The position numbers and the translations under genes were made by a program. A stretch of DNA of 64,000 nt. It comes from Octopus sinensis. Its lineage: Eukaryota. The notes below the pieces were generated by a model, which saw only the letters and a program-made list of their open reading frames with translations, did no database searches and was not told the origin of the DNA. Positions 8,992 through 56,021 of the stretch are shown here, piece after piece. Each line of letters opens with the position of its first letter. Position 1 is the stretch's first letter. The DNA lies in the NCBI RefSeq assembly GCF_006345805.1, contig NC_043000.1, forward strand, positions 117,118,001-117,182,000, read 5' to 3'.

Positions 8992-9625
8992 GTATGTGGT
9001 AAGGCAATTCGTTGCTAAACCCTTTATTGCTTAGTATTAGTTAAATTTTCCTCGAATGAGGCTTTTACATGCCGAAGACTACTGGTGTAATTGATAATTA
9101 TTCCAAATTAATTAATTTCACCCTTCATTATTACGGATAACCATATTTTATCTCAGTAGATGACCACAGCATCTTGTTTTGGCTACACGCGGGTGGGAAG
9201 GGGCTGGTGACACAATCTTTCCATTCACACATTGAATTGGTGATACTAGTTGCGGATTCTAGCTCGCTCTGATACTGAGTTGAGTTGGTGCCTTCTAGTA
9301 TCTCAAAATTCAATATTAATCATTTATGATTATAGTATTCTACGCTGAAGAGAAAAGAAGTTTTTGGTAAGATAGAATTATTTAATATTTAATTCTTATG
9401 CTTTCCTAAAAACTTGATTTCGAAACGTACGTCCGTAGATAACTTAAAATTGTATGATAGATTGCCGTCAATTCATTCTCTCTTACCTGTTTGTGTCTGC
9501 CTTCCAATTGCTGTTTTTACTGAGATCTCCCTTTTTAGTAGAAGAAATAGCTATAACTCTTTGACTGATATTTCTAAATTCGGTATGTGGTAAGGCAATT
9601 CGTTGCTAAACCCTTTATTGCTTAG

Positions 9626-9628
<3 letters not shown>
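8992..9628 (+). mobile_element. Retrozyme/pLTR-like unit: 591-nt period, 46-nt terminal direct repeat, central hammerhead
   Basis: Identical 46-mer at 8992-9037 and 9583-9628; (TA)n on both sides; hammerhead at 9339-9439. Confidence 0.7.
9339..9439 (+). ncRNA. Type I hammerhead ribozyme with long helix II
   Basis: tctacg-CTGAAGA-[gaaa..aagtttttgg..agaatta/taattct..ctaaaaactt..tttc]-GAAAC-gtac-GTC-cgtaga. Confidence 0.85.
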
Positions 9629-11834: not shown

Positions 11835-12262
11835 ATATTTGAGTAATTGAATGAATTATCTTATTAAGGATAATTCGAAAGATAACCGATACCTGGGTAG
11901 CAAATTCACATCAGAAAGAACACGGTTGAAGCTACGTCCCTAGGGCATAGACTACGTGTCTTCGTGCGGAAATTTGTATGTTTATTTTAAAATTATAAGT
12001 AAATGACAGAATGGAGTTGAACGACTAGTTAACAAATATCCTTTATTCTCGATAATCGCCATGGGCTCCTTGAGAGAGGTCAGCTAAAAGTTTTTTGTGC
12101 ATTTTGATGTCGACATACGTTCCCTGATTTTCCTGATGAGAAATCTGCATAATGTACTCCTTATTCCTTCGGAATTAGGAATATGCAGCCTTCGAAACAT
12201 ATGTCGAGAATAAAGGATATTTGTTAACTAGTCGTTCAACTCCATGCTTTCATTTACTTATA
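11835..12262. mobile_element. Hammerhead-bearing hairpin element in (TA)n
   Basis: Inverted arms 11994-12052 / 12204-12262; the left arm extends ~160 nt further; hammerhead at 12128-12210. Confidence 0.75.
12128..12210 (+). ncRNA. Type I hammerhead ribozyme, long helix II capped by C(UUCG)G
   Basis: ttttc-CTGATGA-[gaa..ctgcata..ttcc-TTCG-gaa..tatgcag..ttc]-GAAAC-atat-GTC-gagaa. Confidence 0.85.
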
Positions 12263-17428: not shown

Positions 17429-17849
17429 TACCTATTTCTTTACTACCCACAAGGGGCTAAACACAGAGGGGACAAACAAGGACAGACAAACGGGTTAAGT
17501 CGATTATATCGACCCCAGTGCGTAACTGGTACTTATTTAATCGACTCCGAAAGGATGAAAGGCAAAGTCGACCTCGGCGGAATTTGAACTCAGAACGTAA
17601 CCGTAAACGAAATACCTATTTCTTTACTACCCACAAGGGGCTAAACACAGAGGGGACAAACAAGGACAGACAAACACATTGAGTCGATTATATCGACCCC
17701 AGGGCGTAACTGGTACTTATTTAATCGACATCGAAAGGATGAAAGGCAAAGTCGACCTCGGCGGAATTTGAACACAGAACGTAACGGCAGACGAAAGAGT
17801 GCTAAGTATTTCGCCCGGCGCGCTAACGTTTCTGCCAGCTCGCCGCCTT
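17429..17849 (-). mobile_element. SINE family A, dimeric form
   Basis: Full unit plus a headless second unit; ACCTTTAGATAGTACC duplicated on both flanks. Confidence 0.9.
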
Positions 17850-20552: not shown

Positions 20553-20930
20553 TAAGTTCAGCAAAATTTAGATTCAGATGAATATGGCACTTAAGTTAAG
20601 GCACCAGAATTTGGTATGGTATTATCCATATAAGTCAAGTGGGCTGATTATAATCAAAATAAGCAACAAGGATATCCAAGGTAGTGTAGTACAATCGTTT
20701 CATGCTACTTCCTTTTATTAAACGCTGTAAGTATTACATCAGTTTTAAAATGTTGGCAAATGAAATAAGTATAAAAATGTACATTGTCCATTTAATTAAA
20801 AAATATTGTATGTGGCAGAATATTGCTCGACATTTTAAAACTGGTGTAATATAGTGTTTAATAAAATTAAGTAGCATGAAACTATTGTACTACACTACCT
20901 TGGATATCCTTGTTGCTTATTTTGATTATA
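20553..20930. repeat. Hairpin element in (TA)n (~100-bp arms, one arm extended ~95 nt)
   Basis: Arms 20648-20752 / 20831-20930; only a half-hammerhead GAAAC-gatt-GTA is present. Confidence 0.8.
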
Positions 20931-21175
20931 TATATATATATATATAATAGAAATATTAAAATAACTAAGTCTCTCTAAAAGAGAACAGCGGCAGCGTTCC
21001 CGGAAAATAATAGTTATCGCCATACTAATATGGCATTCTTATAAAAATAAGAAAAAAGCTGTCCGCTTATTAGCTCCATGAGGCCATCGCCTTAAGTTAG
21101 CTATTTGATACACAAACTGTACCCATATAACCTTCGAACAAGGGAGGTCAGTCGCTCCACACTACTTGACCGGCA

Positions 21176-21217
21176 GCTACAGACGCGTTTCGGGGTATTG
21201 CCCCTTTTCAATGCAGC
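21176..21217 (-). ncRNA. Minimal type I hammerhead, U3-A8 core variant
   Basis: gctgca-TTGAAAA-GGGG-caata-CCCC-GAAAC-gc-GTC-tgtagc. Confidence 0.8.
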
Positions 21218-21538
21218 GTAGCCAGCCAGTAGGTGTCGCTTCCGACAATCTCTGTTCGATGGTTTTATTTACCTAGTTTCGGTGGAATACATCCACTTGT
21301 TTTCAATAATAGAAATATTAAAATAACTAAGTCTCTCTAAAAGAGAACAGCGGCAGCGTTCCCGGAAAATAATAGTTATCGCCATACTAATATGGCATTC
21401 TTATAAAAATAAGAAAAAAGCTGTCCGCTTATTAGCTCCATGAGGCCATCGCCTTAAGTTAGCTATTTGATACACCAAACTGTATCCATATAACCTTCGA
21501 ACAAGGGAGGTCAGTCGCTCCACACTACTTGACCGGCA

Positions 21539-21580
21539 GCTACAGACGCGTTTCGGGGTATTGCCCCTTTTCAATGCAGC
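21539..21580 (-). ncRNA. Minimal type I hammerhead, U3-A8 core variant (second unit)
   Basis: Identical to 21176-21217. Confidence 0.8.
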
Positions 21581-22026
21581 GTAGCCAGCCAGTAGGTGTC
21601 GCTTCCGACAATCTCTGTTCGATGGTTTTTTTTACCTAGTTTCGGTGGAATACATCCACTTGTTTTCAATAATAGAAATATTAAAATAACTAAGTCTCTC
21701 TAAAAGAGAACAGCGGCAGCGTTCCCGGAAAATAATAGTTATCGCCATACTAATATGGCATTCTTATAAAAATAAGAAAAAAGCTGTCCGCTTATTAGCT
21801 CCATGAGGTCATCGCCTTAAGTTAGCTATTTGATACACAAACTGTATCCATATAACCTTCGAACAAGGGAGGTCAGTCGCTCCACACTACTTGACCGGCA
21901 CTACTTGTGTATCAAATAGCTAACTTAAGGCGATGGCCTCATGGAGCTAATAAGCGGACAGCTTTTTTCTTATTTTTATAAGAATGCCATATTAGTATGG
22001 CGATAACTATTATATATATATATATA

Positions 22027-22082
<56 letters not shown>

Positions 22083-29172: not shown

Positions 29173-29387
29173 TATATATATATATATAATATATATATAT
29201 AATATATAATAATAAATATTAGGGAATAAATCCAAATTAACAGGGAAAAATCAGATTTAGGATTAAATCCAATTTTATAGTAAAATATTATATAATATTA
29301 ATTCGAGACAAAACCACTATTTTGCAAATCAAACAAGGAAAGACTTAATCAATACATAAAAAATTTTAATATAAAGTAAATAAACCG

Positions 29388-29431
29388 CCACTACAATTGT
29401 TTCATGTCTTCAAATGACATTCGTCAGGTGG
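29388..29431 (-). ncRNA. Minimal type I hammerhead ribozyme
   Basis: Reverse complement of 29499-29542. Confidence 0.9.
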
Positions 29432-29498
29432 ATTCCCGATTTTTAATCAGTTTTCATTTATGAAGTCATAAATGAAAACTGATTAGAAGATCGGGAAT

Positions 29499-29542
29499 CC
29501 ACCTGACGAATGTCATTTGAAGACATGAAACAATTGTAGTGG
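29499..29542 (+). ncRNA. Minimal type I hammerhead ribozyme
   Basis: ccac-CTGACGA-ATGTC-atttgaa-GACAT-GAAAC-aatt-GTA-gtgg. Confidence 0.9.
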
Positions 29543-29628
29543 CGGTTTATTTACTTTAAATTAAAATTTGTTATGTATTGATTAAGTCTTTCCTTGTTTG
29601 ATTTGCAAAATAGTGGTTTTGTCTCGAA

Positions 29629-30082
<454 letters not shown>

Positions 30083-32325: not shown

Positions 32326-32740
32326 AGGCGGCGAGCTGACGGAAACGTTAGCACGCCGGGCGAAATACTTAGCAGTATTTCGTTTGCCGTTACGTTCTGA
32401 TTTCAAATTCCACCGAGGTCGACTTTGCCTTTCATCCTTTCGGGATCGATTAAATAAGTAGCAGTTACGCACTGGGGTCGATGTAATCGACTTAATCTGT
32501 GTGTCTGTCCTTGTTTGTCCCCTCTATGTGTAGCCCCTTGTGTGTAGTAAAGAAATAGGTATTTCGTCTGTCGTTACGTTCTGAGTTCAAATTCCGTCGA
32601 GGTCGACTTTGCCTTTCATCCTTTCGCGGTCGATAAATTAAGTACCAGTTACGCACTGGGGTCGATATAATCGACTTAATCCGTTTGTCTGTCCTTGTTT
32701 GTCCCCTCTATGTTTAGTTCCTTGTGGGCAGTAAAGAAAT
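32326..32740 (+). mobile_element. SINE family A, dimeric, ~20-bp TSD
   Basis: ATATACCATATTGTTATATT duplicated on both flanks. Confidence 0.9.
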
Positions 32741-33855
32741 ATATACCATATTGTTATATTGTTTGTTTGTTGTTATTTCTCTATAGTATATTAGATTGTT
32801 GTATTTCATTTTATTCCAATGTACTTTATATAATTGCCAACCAGGCTGTTTTCTGTACCAATTTTTATCCTTGCACTATTCAATTCATAACCCTGGCATT
32901 TTCGGATGCCTAAGATAGCTGTAATCTTGACAAACCTTGGAAATTAAATTCTCTAAACATTTTTATAGTGAATCCTTTCCAAAATGGTAATCATAGATTT
33001 TAAATTTCATTCCTATCGAAAAAACTTTAATACTTTAACTTCAAATTACAAGGTATTCTAACTTTTCCTCGCAGCTACATTTTTCCATCGTTGTTCGAGG
33101 TTGCATTCCTAATACTTTTTTCAATTTTGTTTTCTGAAATCTGAATTTTTGCGTCCTCCATATTTTCATCATAAAATTTTTGACCCGTTATTAATATTGA
33201 TTTTTTTTCTTGTTGTACAGGTACAACATAGCTTTTCCTGCTACTTTGGTTCCAAGGTCTTTCATAGTTATTCCGAACCAGGTGTGCACACCTAGGTAAA
33301 CAAATTTTTAACTTATCCAATTAAATGAAATACAGGTAACTCTACATCAGTATAAATGATACAAGTTTATTAATACTATACTGTGCAAACTACTTTGAAG
33401 AAGAGCCGTCCAATATACTAACCAGTCTGGTGGCCACGAAAATCTGAAGTGCCTGCTCGTATACTAATGCGGATTATAGAAGGTTCTGGAAAATGAGTAT
33501 CCGGAAAGTCGATGTTAGCATTCTTTTTCCCTCCTACTTTGTATTATTGGTTAATTTCCATCTCTCAATAACTTTAATTTTAAAGTTTTAATCTCTGCTT
33601 TCTAATATTCCCTTTTTAACCTCTAACTCTATAGTTATTACTTTCTGAGATGCATTCATAACTTAAGCATCTTATTAGTCACATGATTTTCTTTTGTTCC
33701 ATTGTATTGGGTGTAACTTAACCACTAATCCATTACATTTACATTTGTTTTTCATATGCAAAATTTTAATCCCAGGTTCCCTATATTTCCCAGTATTTCC
33801 TTATTTCTCAACCATATGCTCTAAATGTAGCTTTGGTTATATTATTCCCTGAACC

Positions 33856-39397: not shown

Positions 39398-40395
39398 AGA
39401 AGCATGGACTTTGCATCAGGACATCTAAAAGACAGATTTAATGTCAGCTTACCCCGATACTCAGCGTTCTTTCGATTGTTTCTATGAAGTATACGGAGCC
39501 ATGTTTTATAGAGACGAATTCTGTAGAATTCTTTCTAAACCGCTTAAAGTAAATTTTACTCTGGTGCAGTTTTTCTCTTAATGACGATCAGGATACCAAA
39601 GAAAGACGTATGAGAATAAGAAAGGGAGTGGACAAATTGCTAGGAGAAAGTACGGGTTGGTGTTATTTATAACCATTGAAATAAACATAACGTATCACAA
39701 CACTTCGTTTCTTGTAATCTAAACGTCAGAAAGCATACATCTTACCTTTTTCTCCACACTGCCATGGCAAAAATCGCTGAGGGTATTCTAGAATTTTGTC
39801 ATACATCAATTGGTACGCAAACACGGCTCAGAACGTAGCGACGGGCGAAATACTGCTAAGCATTTCATCTAGCGTGCTAACGACTCTGCTAGCTCGCCCC
39901 CTTGCCCCTATATATGGTTAGGGATTGATAAGAAAGTACAGAGCCAAACAATAGCATGAGAGCAATTTTCGGCAGACACATTGCATTTTTCATTGACAGG
40001 TTTTATCAACAAAGGACATCAGTCATGATTATATGTCACTGTGATGTGAACATAGAAACTCATTCCTCAGGAAAGACAGAAAATATAGTGAGTTGGTTAA
40101 ACTATGTGAAAACAAGGGGTAGATGGTAATATACCTACCTGTAGAGATAGTTGTTAGGGCGTTTGTTTGGCGCCAAGGTTTACTCAATACTCAAGAGTCT
40201 TGTTAGGTATGAAGGAGACGATAGATGTTGTCAGAAAATTGCCTGAAGCTACTGAGAACGTTATCTATTGCATCTAATTCATGAGCGAGGACGAGTGGTG
40301 GGGCAAGAAGACGCATTGGAAATATTAGAAAAATCTGTATTTAGAAATGGAGTACATAAGCACCTTTACTACACAAATATTTATCTTATTTATTT

Positions 40396-40809
40396 TTATT
40401 TACTACCCACAAGGGGCTAAACACAGAGAGGACAAACAAGGACAGTCAAACGGATTAAGTCGATTATATCGACGCCAGTGCAAAACTGGTACTTAATTTA
40501 TCGACTCCGAAAGGATGAAAGGCAAAGTCGACCTCGGCAGAATTTGAACTCAGAACGTAACGGCAGACGGAATACCTATTTCTTTACAACCCACAAGGGG
40601 CTAAACACAGAGGGGAAAAACAAGGACAGACAAAGGAATTAAGTCGATTATATCGACCCCAGTGCGTAACTCGTAATTAATTTATCGACCCCGAAAGGAT
40701 GAAAGGCAAAGTCAACCTCAGCGGAATTTGAACTCAGAACATAACGGCAGACGAAATACGGCTACGCATTTCGCCTGGCGTGCTAACGTTTCTGCCAGCT
40801 CGCCGCCTT
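40396..40809 (-). mobile_element. SINE family A, dimeric
   Basis: Same structure as 17429-17849; AATATTTATC on both flanks. Confidence 0.9.
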
Positions 40810-44528: not shown

Positions 44529-45215
44529 TATATTTTGGTAAATATTTACGAGATGTAAAATTTGTGTTTTGGCAAAGATGTTCTGTGTCACTAATCATCA
44601 GCACCTAAAAAAAGCGCACAAGGGCTATGACTGTCCTTTTCTACACAAATGTGATGAAATTTTATGTTCCTTTCATCTTTTTAAGAGGAATTTTCCGTTA
44701 CATAATAAACAAACGTCTCTTGAAGGTAATACAGTTATTAAACAATATAAGAAATACATTGAGTATGGTTTATGTGCGAGGGGAAAAGGTTTCAAGGTGA
44801 TTATGTCACATCCCTGTATAACAGCCGACGAGCAATAGCCAATAATTTCTAAGTTTGGGCTAAAAGTCTACAATACTTCACCTTGTTTCCAATACTCTAC
44901 CGTAAATAACTAGTTTGGTGCCAGCTCCCTAGCCTATGGCGCTTGATCTCCCATCCGTAATAGGATCGCAGGACAAATTTTGATAATTCTATGAAATACC
45001 GGAATATGCGTTATGTAGGTATTTATGTACACACACACAACCGCATACACACATCACACACACACACAAACACACTCACTCACACAAATAAATATACAAT
45101 ATATATATATATATATATATAAAATATTATTAGAGACAAAACCACTATTTTGCAAAACAAACAAGGAAAGACTTAATCAATACATAAAATTTTAATAAAT
45201 AGTCAAAAAAAACCG

Positions 45216-45258
45216 CCACTACAATTGTTTCTTGTCTTGATCGACAATCTTCAGGTGG
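45216..45258 (-). ncRNA. Minimal type I hammerhead ribozyme
   Basis: Reverse complement of 46473-46515. Confidence 0.9.
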
Positions 45259-46472
45259 ACTTCCAATCTAAAATATCAATATTTTAAAATATAAAAATAA
45301 TAATTTTAAAATAATTAAAGTATGAATGAAAAAATGTAAATATATAATCCATATATAACCTATATATAATCCATATATAATCAATATATAAACAATATAT
45401 AAACTAAAATAAACCTATCAACAATTAAATATAAAATATAAAATATAAAATATGTTATGGGTGTGTGGTTTACGTGTGTGTATTTGTGTGTGAATGTATA
45501 GGTTAAAGGGATTCCTATATAAGTATGTTATAGTGTTTAGTAAAGGGAGGTTTTATCATTTATGTTTTGTGAGTTTTAGCTTATCATGGTAGTTTTATAA
45601 AAGAATCCATTCATAATTTTTGTGTTTATTTGTCTGTGTGGGGTTGAGTGGGTTTTTGGAGTATATGTTGAGGTTTATATGTATGTATAGGTATGTGTAA
45701 GTGGTGTGGGTATTTGTATATGTCGTGGGTGTGTGGTTTACGTGTGTGTATTTGTGTGTGAATGTTTAGGTTAGGGGGATTGCTATATAGGTATGTTATA
45801 GAGTTTAGTAAAGGGAGATTTTATCATTATATGTTTTTATGAGTTTTGGTTTATCATGGTAGGTTGTTAAGGAATTCGTAGTAATTTGTGTCTATTTGCG
45901 ATGTCTGTTGTTTTATTGCATTGTTTCATTCATAATTTTTAAGTAGTGTTAGTTTTACCAAGTGAATATAATTTTTAATTCCATTTATTCCATTTCTCCG
46001 TTCATAATTTTAAGTGATGTCCGTTTTCTAGAGCGTGAATGTGGGTTGTATGTGTGTGTGTGTGGGAGTATGAATAAGTATTGTGTTGAAGTATTTAGCT
46101 ATTTTATTTATTTATAGTTGCCTAGACGTTTTTATGTGTATGTATAGGGATATATATATAGGTGTGTGATTTAGTGTATGTAGTTAGATATGGTTATATA
46201 TAATTAGGTATATGTGTATGGGTGTATATATAGTTTATTATTATATTATTATTATTTTTTTGTTTTGTTTTATATTTTATATTTTATATTTTATATTTTA
46301 TATTAATTGTTGATAGGTTTATTTTAGTTTATATATTGTTTATATATTGATTATATATGGATTATATATAGGTTATATATGGATTATATATTTACATTTT
46401 TTCATTCATACTTTAATTATTTTAAAATTATTATTTTTATATTTTAAAATATTGATATTTTAGATTGGAAGT

Positions 46473-46515
46473 CCACCTGAAGATTGTCGATCAAGACAAG
46501 AAACAATTGTAGTGG
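46473..46515 (+). ncRNA. Minimal type I hammerhead ribozyme
   Basis: ccac-CTGAAGA-TTGTC-gatcaa-GACAA-GAAAC-aatt-GTA-gtgg. Confidence 0.9.
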
Positions 46516-46690
46516 CGGTTTTTTTTGACTATTTATTAAAATTTTATGTATTGATTAAGTCTTTCCTTGTTTGTTTTGCAAAATAGTGGTTTTGTCTCTA
46601 ATAATATTTTATAATATTTTACTATAAAATTGGATTTAATCCTAAATCTGATTTTTTCCCTGTAAATTTGGATTTATTCCCTAATATTTA

Positions 46691-50636: not shown

Positions 50637-51250
50637 AGGCGGCGAGGTTGTAGAATCGTTAGCACGCCGGGCGAAATGCTTAGCGATATTACGTCTACCG
50701 TTACCTTCGGAATTCAAATTCCGCCGAGGTCGACTTTGCCTTTCATCATTTCGGGGTCGAAAAATTAAGTAGCAGTTACGCACTGGGGTCGATATAATCG
50801 ACTTAATCCCTTTGTCTGTCCTTGTTTGTCCCCTCTGTGTTTAGCCCCTTGTGGGTAGTAAAGAAATAGATATTTCGTCTAGCACTACGTTGTGAGTTAA
50901 AATTCCACCGAGGTCGAATTTGCCTTTCATTCTTTCGGGATCGATTAAAGAAAATACCAGTTATTCACTGGGGTCGATATAATCGACATAATCCGTTTGT
51001 CTGTCCTTGTTTGTCCACTCTGTGTGTAGTCCCTTGTGGGCAGGAAAGAAATAAGAATCGTAAGCACGCCGGACAAAATGCTTAGAAGCATTTCTTCCGG
51101 TTTTACGTTCTGAGTTCAAATCTCGTCGATATCTACTTTTCCTTTCATCCTTCTGGGGTCAGTAAAACAAGTACCAGTGAAGCACTGGTGTTGATTTAGT
51201 CTAGCACCCGCTTCCTCAAAGTTTTAGGCCTTGTGTCTATAGCAGAAATG
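50637..51250 (+). mobile_element. Dimeric SINE A inserted into an older alternative-tail SINE A
   Basis: Three cores in series; AGAATCGTTA repeated at 50652 and 51054. Confidence 0.8.
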
Positions 51251-53082: not shown

Positions 53083-56021
53083 TTTCATTTCATTTCATTT
53101 GAGTTTGAGTCCATGCTCAGGCCAAGTCGAAGACTCCACCCTCAGAGTCTGGTGTGGTTGCCAGGTTGTATTCTCTGTTTAATTTTGACATGTGTAGGAG
53201 CGAGTTTGAGTCAGTTTGTGCTCGTTGTGTATATCCTGGGAGATGGGGTTCATCTCTAATGGTGCTTAAGTATCTATCCAGCTGCAATTTGAATCATTCC
53301 ACACTGCATCCTGATAGATTTCTGACATGTACCGGAATGGAGTTGAATAGTTGTGCTCCTCGAACCAACAGACTTGATTCTCGCAGGGTTTTTGCTGCCT
53401 GGCCAGCCTTTTTGTTGATTGGTGGTAGCTGGCAGCGTCTTCCGTGGCGCAGTGAGTGGTAGGTTTTGATACCAAAGTTTGGCACCTTTTGCTCTATCAT
53501 TTTCCAAATGTATATAATTCGGTATCGCTCAAATCTTCTTTCTATTGAGTACATCCTCAAGGTTTTGAGTCTTTGCCAATAGTCCAGGTTCCTCGTTTCT
53601 GAGAAGTATGAGGTAAAATTTCTTTGGAGCGATTCCATCTTAGATAGTTAGCCCTTTGTTGTTGGTGACCACAACTGAGAACAGTACTCAATCCTCGGAA
53701 GTATCATACTGTTCCAGAGGGTTTTCATTGTTGAGGTATCTCTTGATTTGAAGGTGCGCAACATCCACCCGCTGTACTTTCTTGCAGTAAGACAGACTGA
53801 GTCAAGGTGTTCTCTGAATTTTAGGCTGGTTCCCATGTGGATGCCTAAATCTTTCACATACTGTTTTTCCATTATTTGTTGTCCTGATGGGTTTCTGTAG
53901 TTTGTTGTATTTTTCAGATCTTGATCTGTTCCGTAGTGAATTAGTTCAAACTTCTTATCATTGAACAACATGTTGTTTGTTTCCTGCCATTTATATATGG
54001 TGGTCAGGTCCTTTTGTAAGGCCTCTGTATCCACCTCGTCTTTGATTTGTCTCATGACCCTGGTGTCATCAGCAAAGGATGAGACGTTGCTGGTTGTATC
54101 TTCATCTATGTCAGAGATGAGGATGAGAAACAGGATTGGGCCGAGTACTGTACCCTGAGGAACACTGCTGGTCACAGGTGATGGTGTTGAATGGGTTCCA
54201 TTCACAGTGACTGTTTGAGTTCTATTTGTAAGGAACTCATGTATCCATGTATCAACTTTTCCTCCTACTCCTAGCTTTCGAAGTTTGTGACCCAGGATGC
54301 CATGATCTACCTTGTCAAATGCCTTGGCAAAGTCGAGGTAAATAACATCTGTGTTGTAACCATTCTCTAGATTTTCTAGGATTTGGTCATGGTGTGCCAG
54401 TAGTTGGGAAAGACATGATCTACCTAACCTGAATCCATGCTGGTTGCAATTCATCAGATTGTTGGATTCCAGGAACTCAACCAGTTTTCCACGAACTATT
54501 CTTTCGAAGACCTTGATAATGTGTGATGTCAGTGAGATTGGTCGGTAGTTCTTTGGTTTTGATTTGCTGTCCCCTTTATGTATTGGAGTTATGTGTGCTT
54601 CTTTATATGTATTTGGTATTTTGCCATTCTCCATAGATTCCCTCCATATCATGTAAAGGGTTTCAACAATTGTACCTTGCAGTTTTTAAGTATCATGGCA
54701 TTGAAACCGTCAGGCCCCGCAGCTGAGTGCATGGAGAGCTTGTCTATGGCTCTTTCTATGTCTTCTGGGTTGAAATCAATGTCGGATAGGGTAGGTTTAG
54801 TATGGTTGATATCCTTGAAGAATTTTCCTGGGTCATGGATCTTCATGGTTTTAGATGGCTCACTGAAGACACTTTCATACTGTTGACCCAACATTTCTGC
54901 CATTTCAATAGGGTTATTCACTACATCTCCATTTTGTCTCTGGAGAGGTCCTATTGTTGACTTGGTATTCGAGTATTTCTTTGCAAAACTGTAGAAACAT
55001 TTTGGATTTTTCTTGATGTTTTCTGTGGCTCTCTTTTCTGCATTGTTACGTTCTTCATCATAGTGTTGTTTTAGATTGTCTTCTAATCTGTATATTTGGT
55101 CAAGGACTTTCTGTAATTCATGTTTTGATGTCAGCTTAGATGTTTTGTTTCTTAGTCTTGACCTTTTGCGCATCAGGATCTTTCGCTCCCGTGGTACAGG
55201 TTTTTTTGTGGATTTGGTTTTCTTAAGAGGAATATGTTTTGCACATATTTCTTCGATCTTGTTTAAGAATTTCTTGTGTTTATCTGGCCCAGTAAGGTAG
55301 AGATCCCAGTCAATGATTTGTAACTGGTTGTTAATAGTTTCCCAATTTGCCTGGTGATAATCATACCTGCATAGCTTTGGCATGTCCTTTTGTTTAAGAG
55401 TTGTGGCATTGGGCTCATTACCAATGTGTAAATGCATTTCAATAATATTGTGGTCTGAAAGGATTGTTGGGGTTGAGTGAAGGTCAATAGCGTGTCCTCG
55501 TTGTTGGTGAAAACCAAGTCGATCGTATTATTATTTCTTGTTGCTTCTGTCATCATTTGTTTGAGGTATAATTTCTCTGTGACTTCCAACAGTTTGGCTG
55601 TCTGTATTTGTTCAGCTTTTGTCCCCAGTTTTAGTATGTGTCCATGTGGCCAGATGATGTTAGGAAGTTGAAGTCACCAAGGAGGATAATGTCTGGCATT
55701 GGACTCGCCATGTTTCCCAGAATTTGTTGGAGCTTTGTCAGTGGCTCAGTGAAGGATAATGTTGGCTGTTTGGCGGTCTGTACATTATTGTTACAACTGT
55801 ATTAAGTTGGATGATTTTTATGCACAGCAGGTTGCAGTAGGCATTTGATTCATTGACAAGTTCTATGCATGCATAGGTATCATGGATATACATGATAACG
55901 CCCCCATGGGATCTGCCTTGTCTATCACATCTGAAGATGTTGAATCTATTGATTGTGATTTCGCTGTTGCGGATGTTTTCGTTGAGATGACTTTCAGTAA
56001 TTCCAATTATTTTGGAGTTGT
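53083..56021 (-). mobile_element. CR1-type LINE, 5'-truncated, frameshifted ORF2 (APE endonuclease + RT), (AAATG)n tail
   Basis: IIGITESHL, RCDRQGRSHGGV, MYRPP, IDLVFTN, AAGPDG, NYRPISLTS, QHGFR, DFAKAFDKV, VPQGTVLGP, FADD, YCSQLWSP; split over at least 5 ORFs. Confidence 0.93.
53648..54652 (-). pseudogene. Reverse transcriptase domain of the CR1-type LINE
   Basis: 334-aa ORF carrying the RT motifs through FADD. Confidence 0.9.

What the first reader, a model, noticed from the sequence alone, without database searches (positions are those of the whole stretch)
21176..21217. Compensatory U3-A8 swap in the hammerhead catalytic core
The core reads UUGAAAA rather than CUGANGA. Established: C3 and G8 form a Watson-Crick pair in the active fold, so the double change preserves pairing, which argues for selection on catalysis. 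Helix I also extends (uggcuggc/gccgguca) beyond an internal loop that could dock loop II. Standard CUGANGA searches would miss it.
Basis: partly seen in the sequence, partly recalled or inferred. Interest (0 to 1): 0.7.

Follow-up and report, generated by a model that had tools for sequence, protein, structure and literature searches.

The report
Hammerhead retrozyme with known U3-A8 core
This is a hammerhead-ribozyme motif with an already published U3-A8 core variant, carried twice in a 363-base tandem repeat that is likely a non-autonomous Penelope-type jumping element whose RNA is predicted to cut itself as a pair.

Summary
The minus strand carries a complete type I hammerhead motif (U3 21211, A8 21206, predicted cut 21182/21181) and an identical copy 363 nt away. 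Helix I has a distal extension beyond a 3x1 loop, and helix III is the palindrome ACGCGU. The host is a 2.6-unit tandem of a 363-bp repeat with an inverted arm, inserted in (TA)n: the layout of a non-LTR retrozyme or non-autonomous Penelope-like element. The swap is not new. U3-A8 was reported in nature in 2011, and in about 1,300 Schistosoma Penelope hammerheads in 2014, one with the same UUGAAAA letters. Across the family, C3 stays under 1% of contig depth in 3 of 3 runs laid that are not RNA guesses (two guessed DNA, one of unknown kind), so the consensus is U3. No C3-G8 relative was found, so covariation inside this family is not shown. One published mutational scan rescued only G3-C8, so the swap may cost activity. 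Extra observation: the direct arm begins 1-6 nt from the predicted cut, a hint that cleaved RNA was the template. Cleavage, transcription and circles are untested. Verdict: new family of a known kind, modest interest.

The parts
21176..21217 (-). Type I hammerhead motif, copy 1: helix I (6 bp), core UUGAAAA with U3 21211 and A8 21206, helix II, GAAA, palindromic helix III segment, C17 21182
21167..21228 (-). Copy 1 with distal helix I (21228-21221 paired to 21174-21167) and 3x1 internal loop; U 21175 follows position 1.6, loop II ends in A 21196
   Evidence: signature from PMC2553840
21183..21188 (-). Self-complementary ACGCGU (A15.1 to U16.1); predicted to pair with the same segment of the other copy as a 6-bp helix III
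21539..21580 (-). Type I hammerhead motif, copy 2, identical (U3 21574, A8 21569, C17 21545)
21182..21544 (-). Predicted cut-to-cut monomer RNA, 363 nt, 42% GC, strongly self-paired
   Evidence: z -6.7, 0 of 100 shuffles; circular z -6.05; plus strand z -4.91
20944..21904 (-). Direct arm: 2.6 head-to-tail units of 362-363 bp, about 99% identical; its 5' end lies 1-6 nt from the predicted cut site of the truncated third unit
21905..22013 (+). Inverted, 5'-truncated arm of 109 bp (100% match to 21007-21115), without the ribozyme
20926..20943 (.). (TA)n flank at the 3' end of the direct arm; the arm ends at CTATTAT
22011..22081 (.). (TA)n flank at the 3' end of the inverted arm; this arm also ends at CTATTAT

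Best explanation
The motif is a type I hammerhead with a U3-A8 core inside a 363-bp tandem repeat that is likely a non-autonomous Penelope-derived retroelement (non-LTR retrozyme), whose multimeric RNA is predicted to self-cleave when two copies pair through their ACGCGU palindromes. Shown by sequence: core, helices, two copies, tandem and inverted arms, (TA)n flanks, U3 as family consensus. Inferred from known hammerheads: U3-A8 replaces C3-G8 as the pair that positions the ribose of residue 8 (whose 2'-OH is the proposed general acid), and the last A of loop II docks on the U after position 1.6. Predicted: a single copy cannot form helix III, so cleavage after C17 needs the double-hammerhead fold; it would release a 363-nt monomer with paired ends that can circularise. 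Inferred: a Penelope reverse transcriptase/endonuclease acting in trans copied the RNA into (TA)n, priming at UA-rich sites. The U3-A8 core is probably active but may be slower than C3-G8.
For: Anatomy. Tandem, inversion and (TA)n; partial tandems with an adjacent inverted 5'-truncated copy and microsatellite bias are described for Penelope-like elements (PMC8557442). Unit size, GC below 50% and a self-paired monomer fit non-LTR retrozymes (PMC7229834; fold). The unconstrained fold of the 461-nt two-ribozyme stretch is the double hammerhead (helix III inner pairs 0.99-1.0, core unpaired). Family data: 20 of 24 listed runs hold 77-97% of the unit's words, under 8 organism labels and 12 studies. 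No U3-to-C change reaches 1% of depth in X3, X2 or X6 (all A>G places accounted for: 1 of 1, 2 of 2, 3 of 3). The 4 stem changes reaching 5% in X2 all keep a pair. The direct arm begins 1-6 nt from the predicted cut, and a second element in the window has an arm beginning 2 nt from its cut. Natural U3-A8 cores are reported, and covarying 3-8 pairs had been shown active in vitro (PMC3088659).
Against: No cleavage, transcript end or circle was observed; only contigs could be laid. With longer flanks (751 and 961 nt) the double-hammerhead fold drops to probability 0.0 and each copy folds locally without helix III. A deep mutational scan of a type III hammerhead found low activity for all core double mutants except G3-C8 (PMC9901934). 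For a lizard Penelope element, hammerhead cleavage was not needed for insertion in vitro, and no RNA ends were found at the cut site (PMC11167929). Pair-keeping by 4 of 4 common changes is weak: 21 of 36 possible stem transitions keep a pair anyway, and 7 of the 12 listed stem changes break a pair (rare ones, or ones inflated by a depth gap in X3). No Penelope ORF was recognised in the window: the only reverse transcriptase ORF examined matches LINE-type enzymes.
Confidence: 0.75

Rival explanations
1. The core is a weak or dead ribozyme fixed by founder effect: the family expanded because its RNA is a good template for Penelope proteins, and U3-A8 is carried along rather than selected for catalysis.
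For: Units are about 99% identical, so fixation can reflect one young master copy. U3-A8 was not rescued in one scan. Hammerhead cleavage was dispensable for insertion in vitro. The dimer fold depends on the flanks.
Against: Two separate transitions, neither in a CpG, land on a Watson-Crick pair while all other core letters are canonical. The same pair recurs in unrelated families. No G-to-A, G-to-U or A-to-C change at any core position reaches 1% in three runs (all C>T, C>A and T>G places accounted for). The direct arm starts next to the cut.
Confidence: 0.15
2. The repeat is the amplified end (pLTR) of an autonomous Penelope-like element, inserted as a 5'-truncated tandem, not an independent circular-RNA retrozyme.
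For: The tandem plus inverted layout is the Penelope hallmark; retrozymes and pLTRs are reported to be related (bioRxiv 10.64898/2026.07.22.740005). A 2,377-nt contig in run X10 ends in a diverged relative of this ribozyme with a 2-nt shorter helix III.
Against: The units join head-to-tail at 362 nt in 4 of 4 runs laid with no ORF between. The ribozyme has the canonical 6-bp helix I, 4-bp helix II and loop signature, not the minimal Penelope form. The two readings overlap: both make it Penelope-dependent.
Confidence: 0.08
3. The motif is a chance match inside an ordinary satellite repeat.
For: Rfam finds no hammerhead here even at E up to 10. A relaxed scan gave one poor U3-A8 hit elsewhere in the window (38076).
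Against: All core letters, three helices, the palindrome and the loop signature coincide; the generic descriptor expects 0.1 such hits per window; fold z -3.5.
Confidence: 0.02

Closest known systems
U3-A8 minimal hammerheads of Schistosoma mansoni Penelope-like (Cercyon) elements (Cervera and De la Pena 2014, PMC4209133)
   Same: Same U3-A8 covariation (about 1,300 hits reported); one listed example has the core letters UUGAAAA (supplement passage); type I; palindromic, monomer-incompetent helix III.
   Different: Those are minimal motifs, with an extra nucleotide after A9, a short helix I and poorly defined loop 1, mostly single and heterogeneous. This one has canonical helix sizes, no extra nucleotide, a distal helix and a homogeneous tandem family.
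Non-LTR retrozymes of animals (Cervera and De la Pena 2020, PMC7229834), e.g. mussel 350-390 bp and axolotl 330/350 bp repeats
   Same: Tandem unit in the 150-450 bp range, GC below 50%, one type I hammerhead per unit, self-paired monomer, weak palindromic helix III predicted to need dimers.
   Different: The passages read describe no U3-A8 core (0 occurrences of 'U3-A8' in the main text; its supplement could not be read). Circular RNA is shown there and untested here.
Natural C3-G8 to U3-A8 covariants of Perreault et al. 2011 (PMC3088659)
   Same: Same pair exchange, reported in several natural hammerheads.
   Different: The passages read do not say in which elements; this case is a fixed core of a high-copy animal repeat family.
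Schistosoma Sm-alpha type I hammerhead (as described in Chi et al. 2008, PMC2553840)
   Same: Last A of loop II and a U adjacent to residue 1.6, the conserved Hoogsteen pair of the stem I-II contact.
   Different: C3-G8 core there. The internal loop here is 3x1, and the other contacts of that structure were not tested.

Membership tests
Type I hammerhead ribozyme | Core C3UGANG8A / GAAA / UH, or a Watson-Crick exchange at 3-8 | tested here: met
   UUGAAAA, GAAA, UC; U3-A8 is an accepted natural covariant
Type I hammerhead ribozyme | Helix I open-ended, helix II closed with G10.1-C11.1 | tested here: met
   6-bp helix I, 4-bp helix II, pair probabilities 0.94-1.00
Type I hammerhead ribozyme | Helix III (stable, or palindromic for dimer use) | tested here: inconclusive
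   No monomeric helix III (probability 0.0). The palindrome pairs between copies in the 461-nt fold but not in the 751- or 961-nt folds
Type I hammerhead ribozyme | Loop I-loop II contact: last A of loop II with U after 1.6 | tested here: met
   A 21196 and U 21175 present by sequence; docking itself not tested
Type I hammerhead ribozyme | Site-specific self-cleavage after H17 | not testable with these tools
   Needs an in vitro assay; only contigs were available
Type I hammerhead ribozyme | Match to an Rfam hammerhead model | tested here: not met
   0 hits at gathering score in the window, none at E up to 10 in 20900-22020. Six C3-G8 motifs in the window are missed too, so this is a library limit and not a defining feature
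Non-LTR retrozyme | Tandem repeats of 150-450 bp, GC below 50%, type I hammerhead in at least two consecutive units | tested here: met
   362-363 bp, GC 0.42, two complete motifs (criteria)
Non-LTR retrozyme | No protein-coding capacity | tested here: met
   No ORF of 120 aa or more overlaps 20944-22013
Non-LTR retrozyme | Highly self-paired monomer | tested here: met
   z -6.7 linear, -6.05 circular; prediction only, and the opposite strand also scores -4.91
Non-LTR retrozyme | Expressed as linear and circular monomer RNA | not testable with these tools
   No listed holder is on record as RNA; contigs cannot tell a circle from a tandem
Penelope-like element (non-autonomous) | Partial tandem with adjacent inverted 5'-truncated copy; microsatellite target | tested here: met
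   described in PMC8557442
Penelope-like element (non-autonomous) | Homology to the pLTR or 3' end of an autonomous RT/GIY-YIG element | not testable with these tools
   No whole genome held; none recognised in the window

The most novel reading that the evidence does not exclude
A full-architecture U3-A8 hammerhead is the fixed, working core of a young, multi-species retrozyme family, and the 5' end of this insertion records its cleavage in vivo. The family would then be a natural test of whether ribozyme cleavage defines the template end in Penelope-driven retrotransposition, and of whether U3-A8 is a tuned-down, dimer-gated core.
Probability: 0.3. Interest if true: 0.5.

Novelty: new member of a known kind. 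Interest (0 to 1): 0.27.

Why it matters
The core swap itself is known, so it matters little. The family is a useful specimen. It puts U3-A8 in a canonical, loop-docking type I scaffold at high copy number, where the four-way 3-8 test is easy. It shows that retrozyme surveys using only C3-G8 descriptors can lose whole families. If insertion 5' ends pile up at the cut site genome-wide, it would give in vivo evidence on an open point: what hammerheads do for Penelope-type elements.

Tried and rejected
Rfam: no hammerhead at gathering score or at E up to 10; the WsnRNA46 hit (45 bits, below its 65-bit cut-off) only reflects the inversion hairpin. Whole genome not held, so no copy count. JGI metagenomes: the family pattern allowing C3/U3 and G8/A8 gave 0 loci; a looser U3-A8 pattern gave 3 loci, none of the 3 with a proper helix I in the fold, treated as chance. 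Expression: no RNA holder listed. Run X10 (RNA is a guess) covers all 28 bins and the unit junction, but may be DNA, so it is not used as evidence. No pile-up of ends was listed, and contigs cannot show one. X3 rows at 21217-21232 rest on depth near 1,700 against more than 100,000 nearby, so their percentages were not trusted. A8: an A-to-G change is excluded at 1% only in X6 (2 of 2 T>C places seen); X3 (6 of 7) and X2 (3 of 4) each have one unseen T>C place. 15 of 55 variant rows were not shown. The diverged 2,377-nt X10 contig has 2 of 14 differences I could not place, so C3-G8 is not excluded there. No tRNA gene in the window, so no tRNA-derived head was shown. CpG decay does not explain either change. 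Earlier scan notes: three look-ups, nothing. Literature searches for this family: octopus + hammerhead ribozyme and cephalopod + ribozyme + Penelope listed no description of it; the organism guess is recalled from other repeats in the window and comes from no call. The paper on 3-8 exchange tolerance (doi 10.1261/rna.631207) is not held; only its title was seen.

Full report
Observation. The finding's coordinates hold a type I hammerhead motif on the minus strand. Helix I (21217-21212 with 21181-21176) has 6 pairs, one of them G-U. The core is UUGAAAA with U3 at 21211 and A8 at 21206. Helix II has four G-C pairs and the loop CAAUA. Then follow GAAA, CGCG, U16.1 and C17 (21182). Helix I and II pairs have probabilities of 0.94-1.00 in the isolated motif, and the 101-nt stretch folds better than 200 of 200 shuffles. 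A generic descriptor expects about 0.1 U3-A8 hits per shuffled window (30 shuffles). An identical copy lies 363 nt away.

Surroundings. The two motifs belong to a 2.6-unit head-to-tail array of a 362-363 bp unit (20944-21904, units about 99% identical), followed by a 109-bp inverted arm (21905-22013), with (TA)n on both sides. Both arms end outward at the same seven letters, CTATTAT, which occur at two internal places of the unit; this suggests priming at UA-rich sites on a (TA)n target (inference). No ORF of 120 aa or more overlaps the element, and the window has no tRNA gene. The one reverse transcriptase ORF I examined, 32 kb away, matches LINE-type enzymes. Partial tandems, an adjacent inverted 5'-truncated copy and microsatellite bias are described for Penelope-like elements (PMC8557442, passages). 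Tandem units of 150-450 bp with GC below 50%, a type I hammerhead and a self-paired monomer define non-LTR retrozymes (PMC7229834, passages and parts 2-3 of 6), which a 2026 preprint derives from Penelope pLTRs (10.64898/2026.07.22.740005, part 1 of 5 and passages). The cut-to-cut monomer (363 nt, GC 0.42) folds at z -6.7 with its ends paired; as a circle z is -6.05, and the opposite strand gives -4.91.

How it likely works. A single copy cannot close helix III (A15.1-U16.1 probability 0.0), but ACGCGU is self-complementary. The unconstrained fold of the 461-nt stretch with both motifs is the double hammerhead: helix III between copies (inner pairs 0.99-1.0), swapped helix I strands (0.8), cores unpaired. 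Against this, the 751-nt and 961-nt stretches fold each copy locally, with the dimer form at 0.0. The dimer is thus accessible but not shown to dominate; 1 of 3 stretches tried favours it. Dimer-dependent cleavage is reported for amphibian retrozymes and Penelope hammerheads. Loop II ends in A (21196) and a U (21175) follows position 1.6, which is the conserved Hoogsteen pair of the stem I-II contact (PMC2553840, passages); docking is inferred. The proposed general acid at position 8 is the ribose 2'-OH (PMC6155905, passages), which explains why the base can change if the 3-8 pair is kept (inference).

Is U3-A8 fixed? The unit is held at 77-97% of its words by 20 of 24 listed runs, under 8 coded organism labels and 12 studies; four holders have only 5-6 million letters of contigs, which suggests high copy number (inference). 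I laid 4 of these 20 runs at 80% likeness: X3 and X2 (guessed DNA), X6 (kind not given) and X10 (guessed RNA). Neither 21211 nor 21206 appears among the 40 of 55 variant rows shown. The per-run counts by kind close part of the gap. All A>G places are accounted for in X3 (1 of 1), X2 (2 of 2) and X6 (3 of 3), so C3 is below 1% of depth in each. G8 is excluded likewise in X6 only; X3 and X2 each have one unseen T>C place. All C>T, C>A and T>G places are accounted for in the three runs, so no core G-to-A, G-to-U or A-to-C change reaches 1%. The four stem changes that reach 5% in X2 (21169, 21173, 21194, 21214) all keep a pair, one turning G-U into A-U and one into G-C. This is weak, since 21 of 36 possible transitions would, and 7 of the 12 listed stem changes break a pair (rare, or in a depth gap of X3). 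A diverged 2,377-nt contig in X10 has 2 of 14 differences that I could not place.

A hint of cleavage in vivo. The truncated third unit matches in register through the equivalent of 21175, six bases after the predicted cut; with one deletion the match reaches to one base from it. A random stop within 6 nt has odds near 6 in 363, but this was noticed after the fact, and a polymerase stall at the stem is a rival. A second element in the window (C3-G8, cut at 12205) has an inverted arm starting 2 nt from its cut. The other arms do not start at a cut: the 109-bp arm here stops 66 nt short, the direct arm of the second element runs through its ribozyme, and so do the four arms of two further elements. 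That is 2 of 8 arms. For a lizard Penelope element, cleavage was not needed for insertion in vitro and no RNA ends mapped to the cut (PMC11167929, passages).

What is known. U3-A8 is in print. Perreault et al. 2011 report that C3-G8 covaries to U3-A8 in several natural hammerheads and that covarying pairs had been shown active in vitro (PMC3088659, passages; four U3-A8 core spellings had 0 hits in its 11 text supplements). Cervera and De la Pena 2014 found it in Schistosoma Penelope elements, about 1,300 hits with a dedicated descriptor (PMC4209133, parts 1-2 of 4), and list an example with the letters UUGAAAA (supplement passage; one of its files was not searched). The 3-8 pair is established (PMC3884650, passages). 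Against full equivalence, a pairwise mutational scan of a type III hammerhead rescued only G3-C8 (PMC9901934, passages). PMC7151607 (one passage) only restates the consensus. Searches for 'U3-A8' (1 paper), 'U3A8', 'C3U' with 'G8A' (not relevant), 'C3-G8' and spaced forms found no report of U3-A8 in a canonical tandem retrozyme, and searches listed no description of this family. The library lacks most subscription papers, and the supplement of PMC7229834 could not be read, so absence from print is not established.

Search blindness. It also misses six C3-G8 hammerhead-like motifs with palindromic helix III in the same window (9345, 12133, 29427, 29503, 45254, 46477), so the miss is not specific to the swap.

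Verdict. A real, well-formed hammerhead motif with a known core variant, in a repeat family of a known kind that I did not find described. It works like a dimer-dependent retrozyme hammerhead (confidence 0.75); cleavage, expression and the autonomous partner are untested. Interest 0.27.

Noticed in passing
window 11994-12262: Another Penelope-like insertion in (TA)n: C3-G8 hammerhead-like motif on + (core 12133, 6-bp helix I, long stem II, palindromic helix III, cut at 12205) with a 59-bp inverted arm that starts 2 nt from the predicted cut.
   Followed up: partly
window 29207-29631 and 45110-46690: Two related inverted-repeat elements next to (TA)n, each with a C3-G8 hammerhead-like motif in both arms (29427/29503; 45254/46477), A at position 17 and palindromic helix III.
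   Followed up: partly
window 9000-9627: Element between (TA)n tracts with a 36-bp terminal direct repeat and a C3-G8 hammerhead-like motif at 9345 (6-bp helix I, 70-nt stem II region, palindromic helix III).
   Followed up: partly
window 20649-20930: Unrelated 81-bp inverted repeat element directly next to the retrozyme, separated by a short (TA)n; no hammerhead found in it by my scans.
   Followed up: no
run X10, record 7 (laid on window 21129-21225): A 2,377-nt contig ends in a diverged relative of this ribozyme with a 2-nt shorter helix III; it could be an autonomous partner element. Its core pair could not be read.
   Followed up: no
window 38076: Poor U3-A8 hammerhead-like match on + (wobble-rich helix I, non-palindromic helix III); probably chance.
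   Followed up: partly
window 53648-55673: Frameshifted LINE-type reverse transcriptase remnant on the minus strand.
   Followed up: partly
window 17429-17796, 32375-32741, 40395-40759, 50716-51053: Four dimeric copies of a 184-bp repeat family, in both orientations.
   Followed up: no
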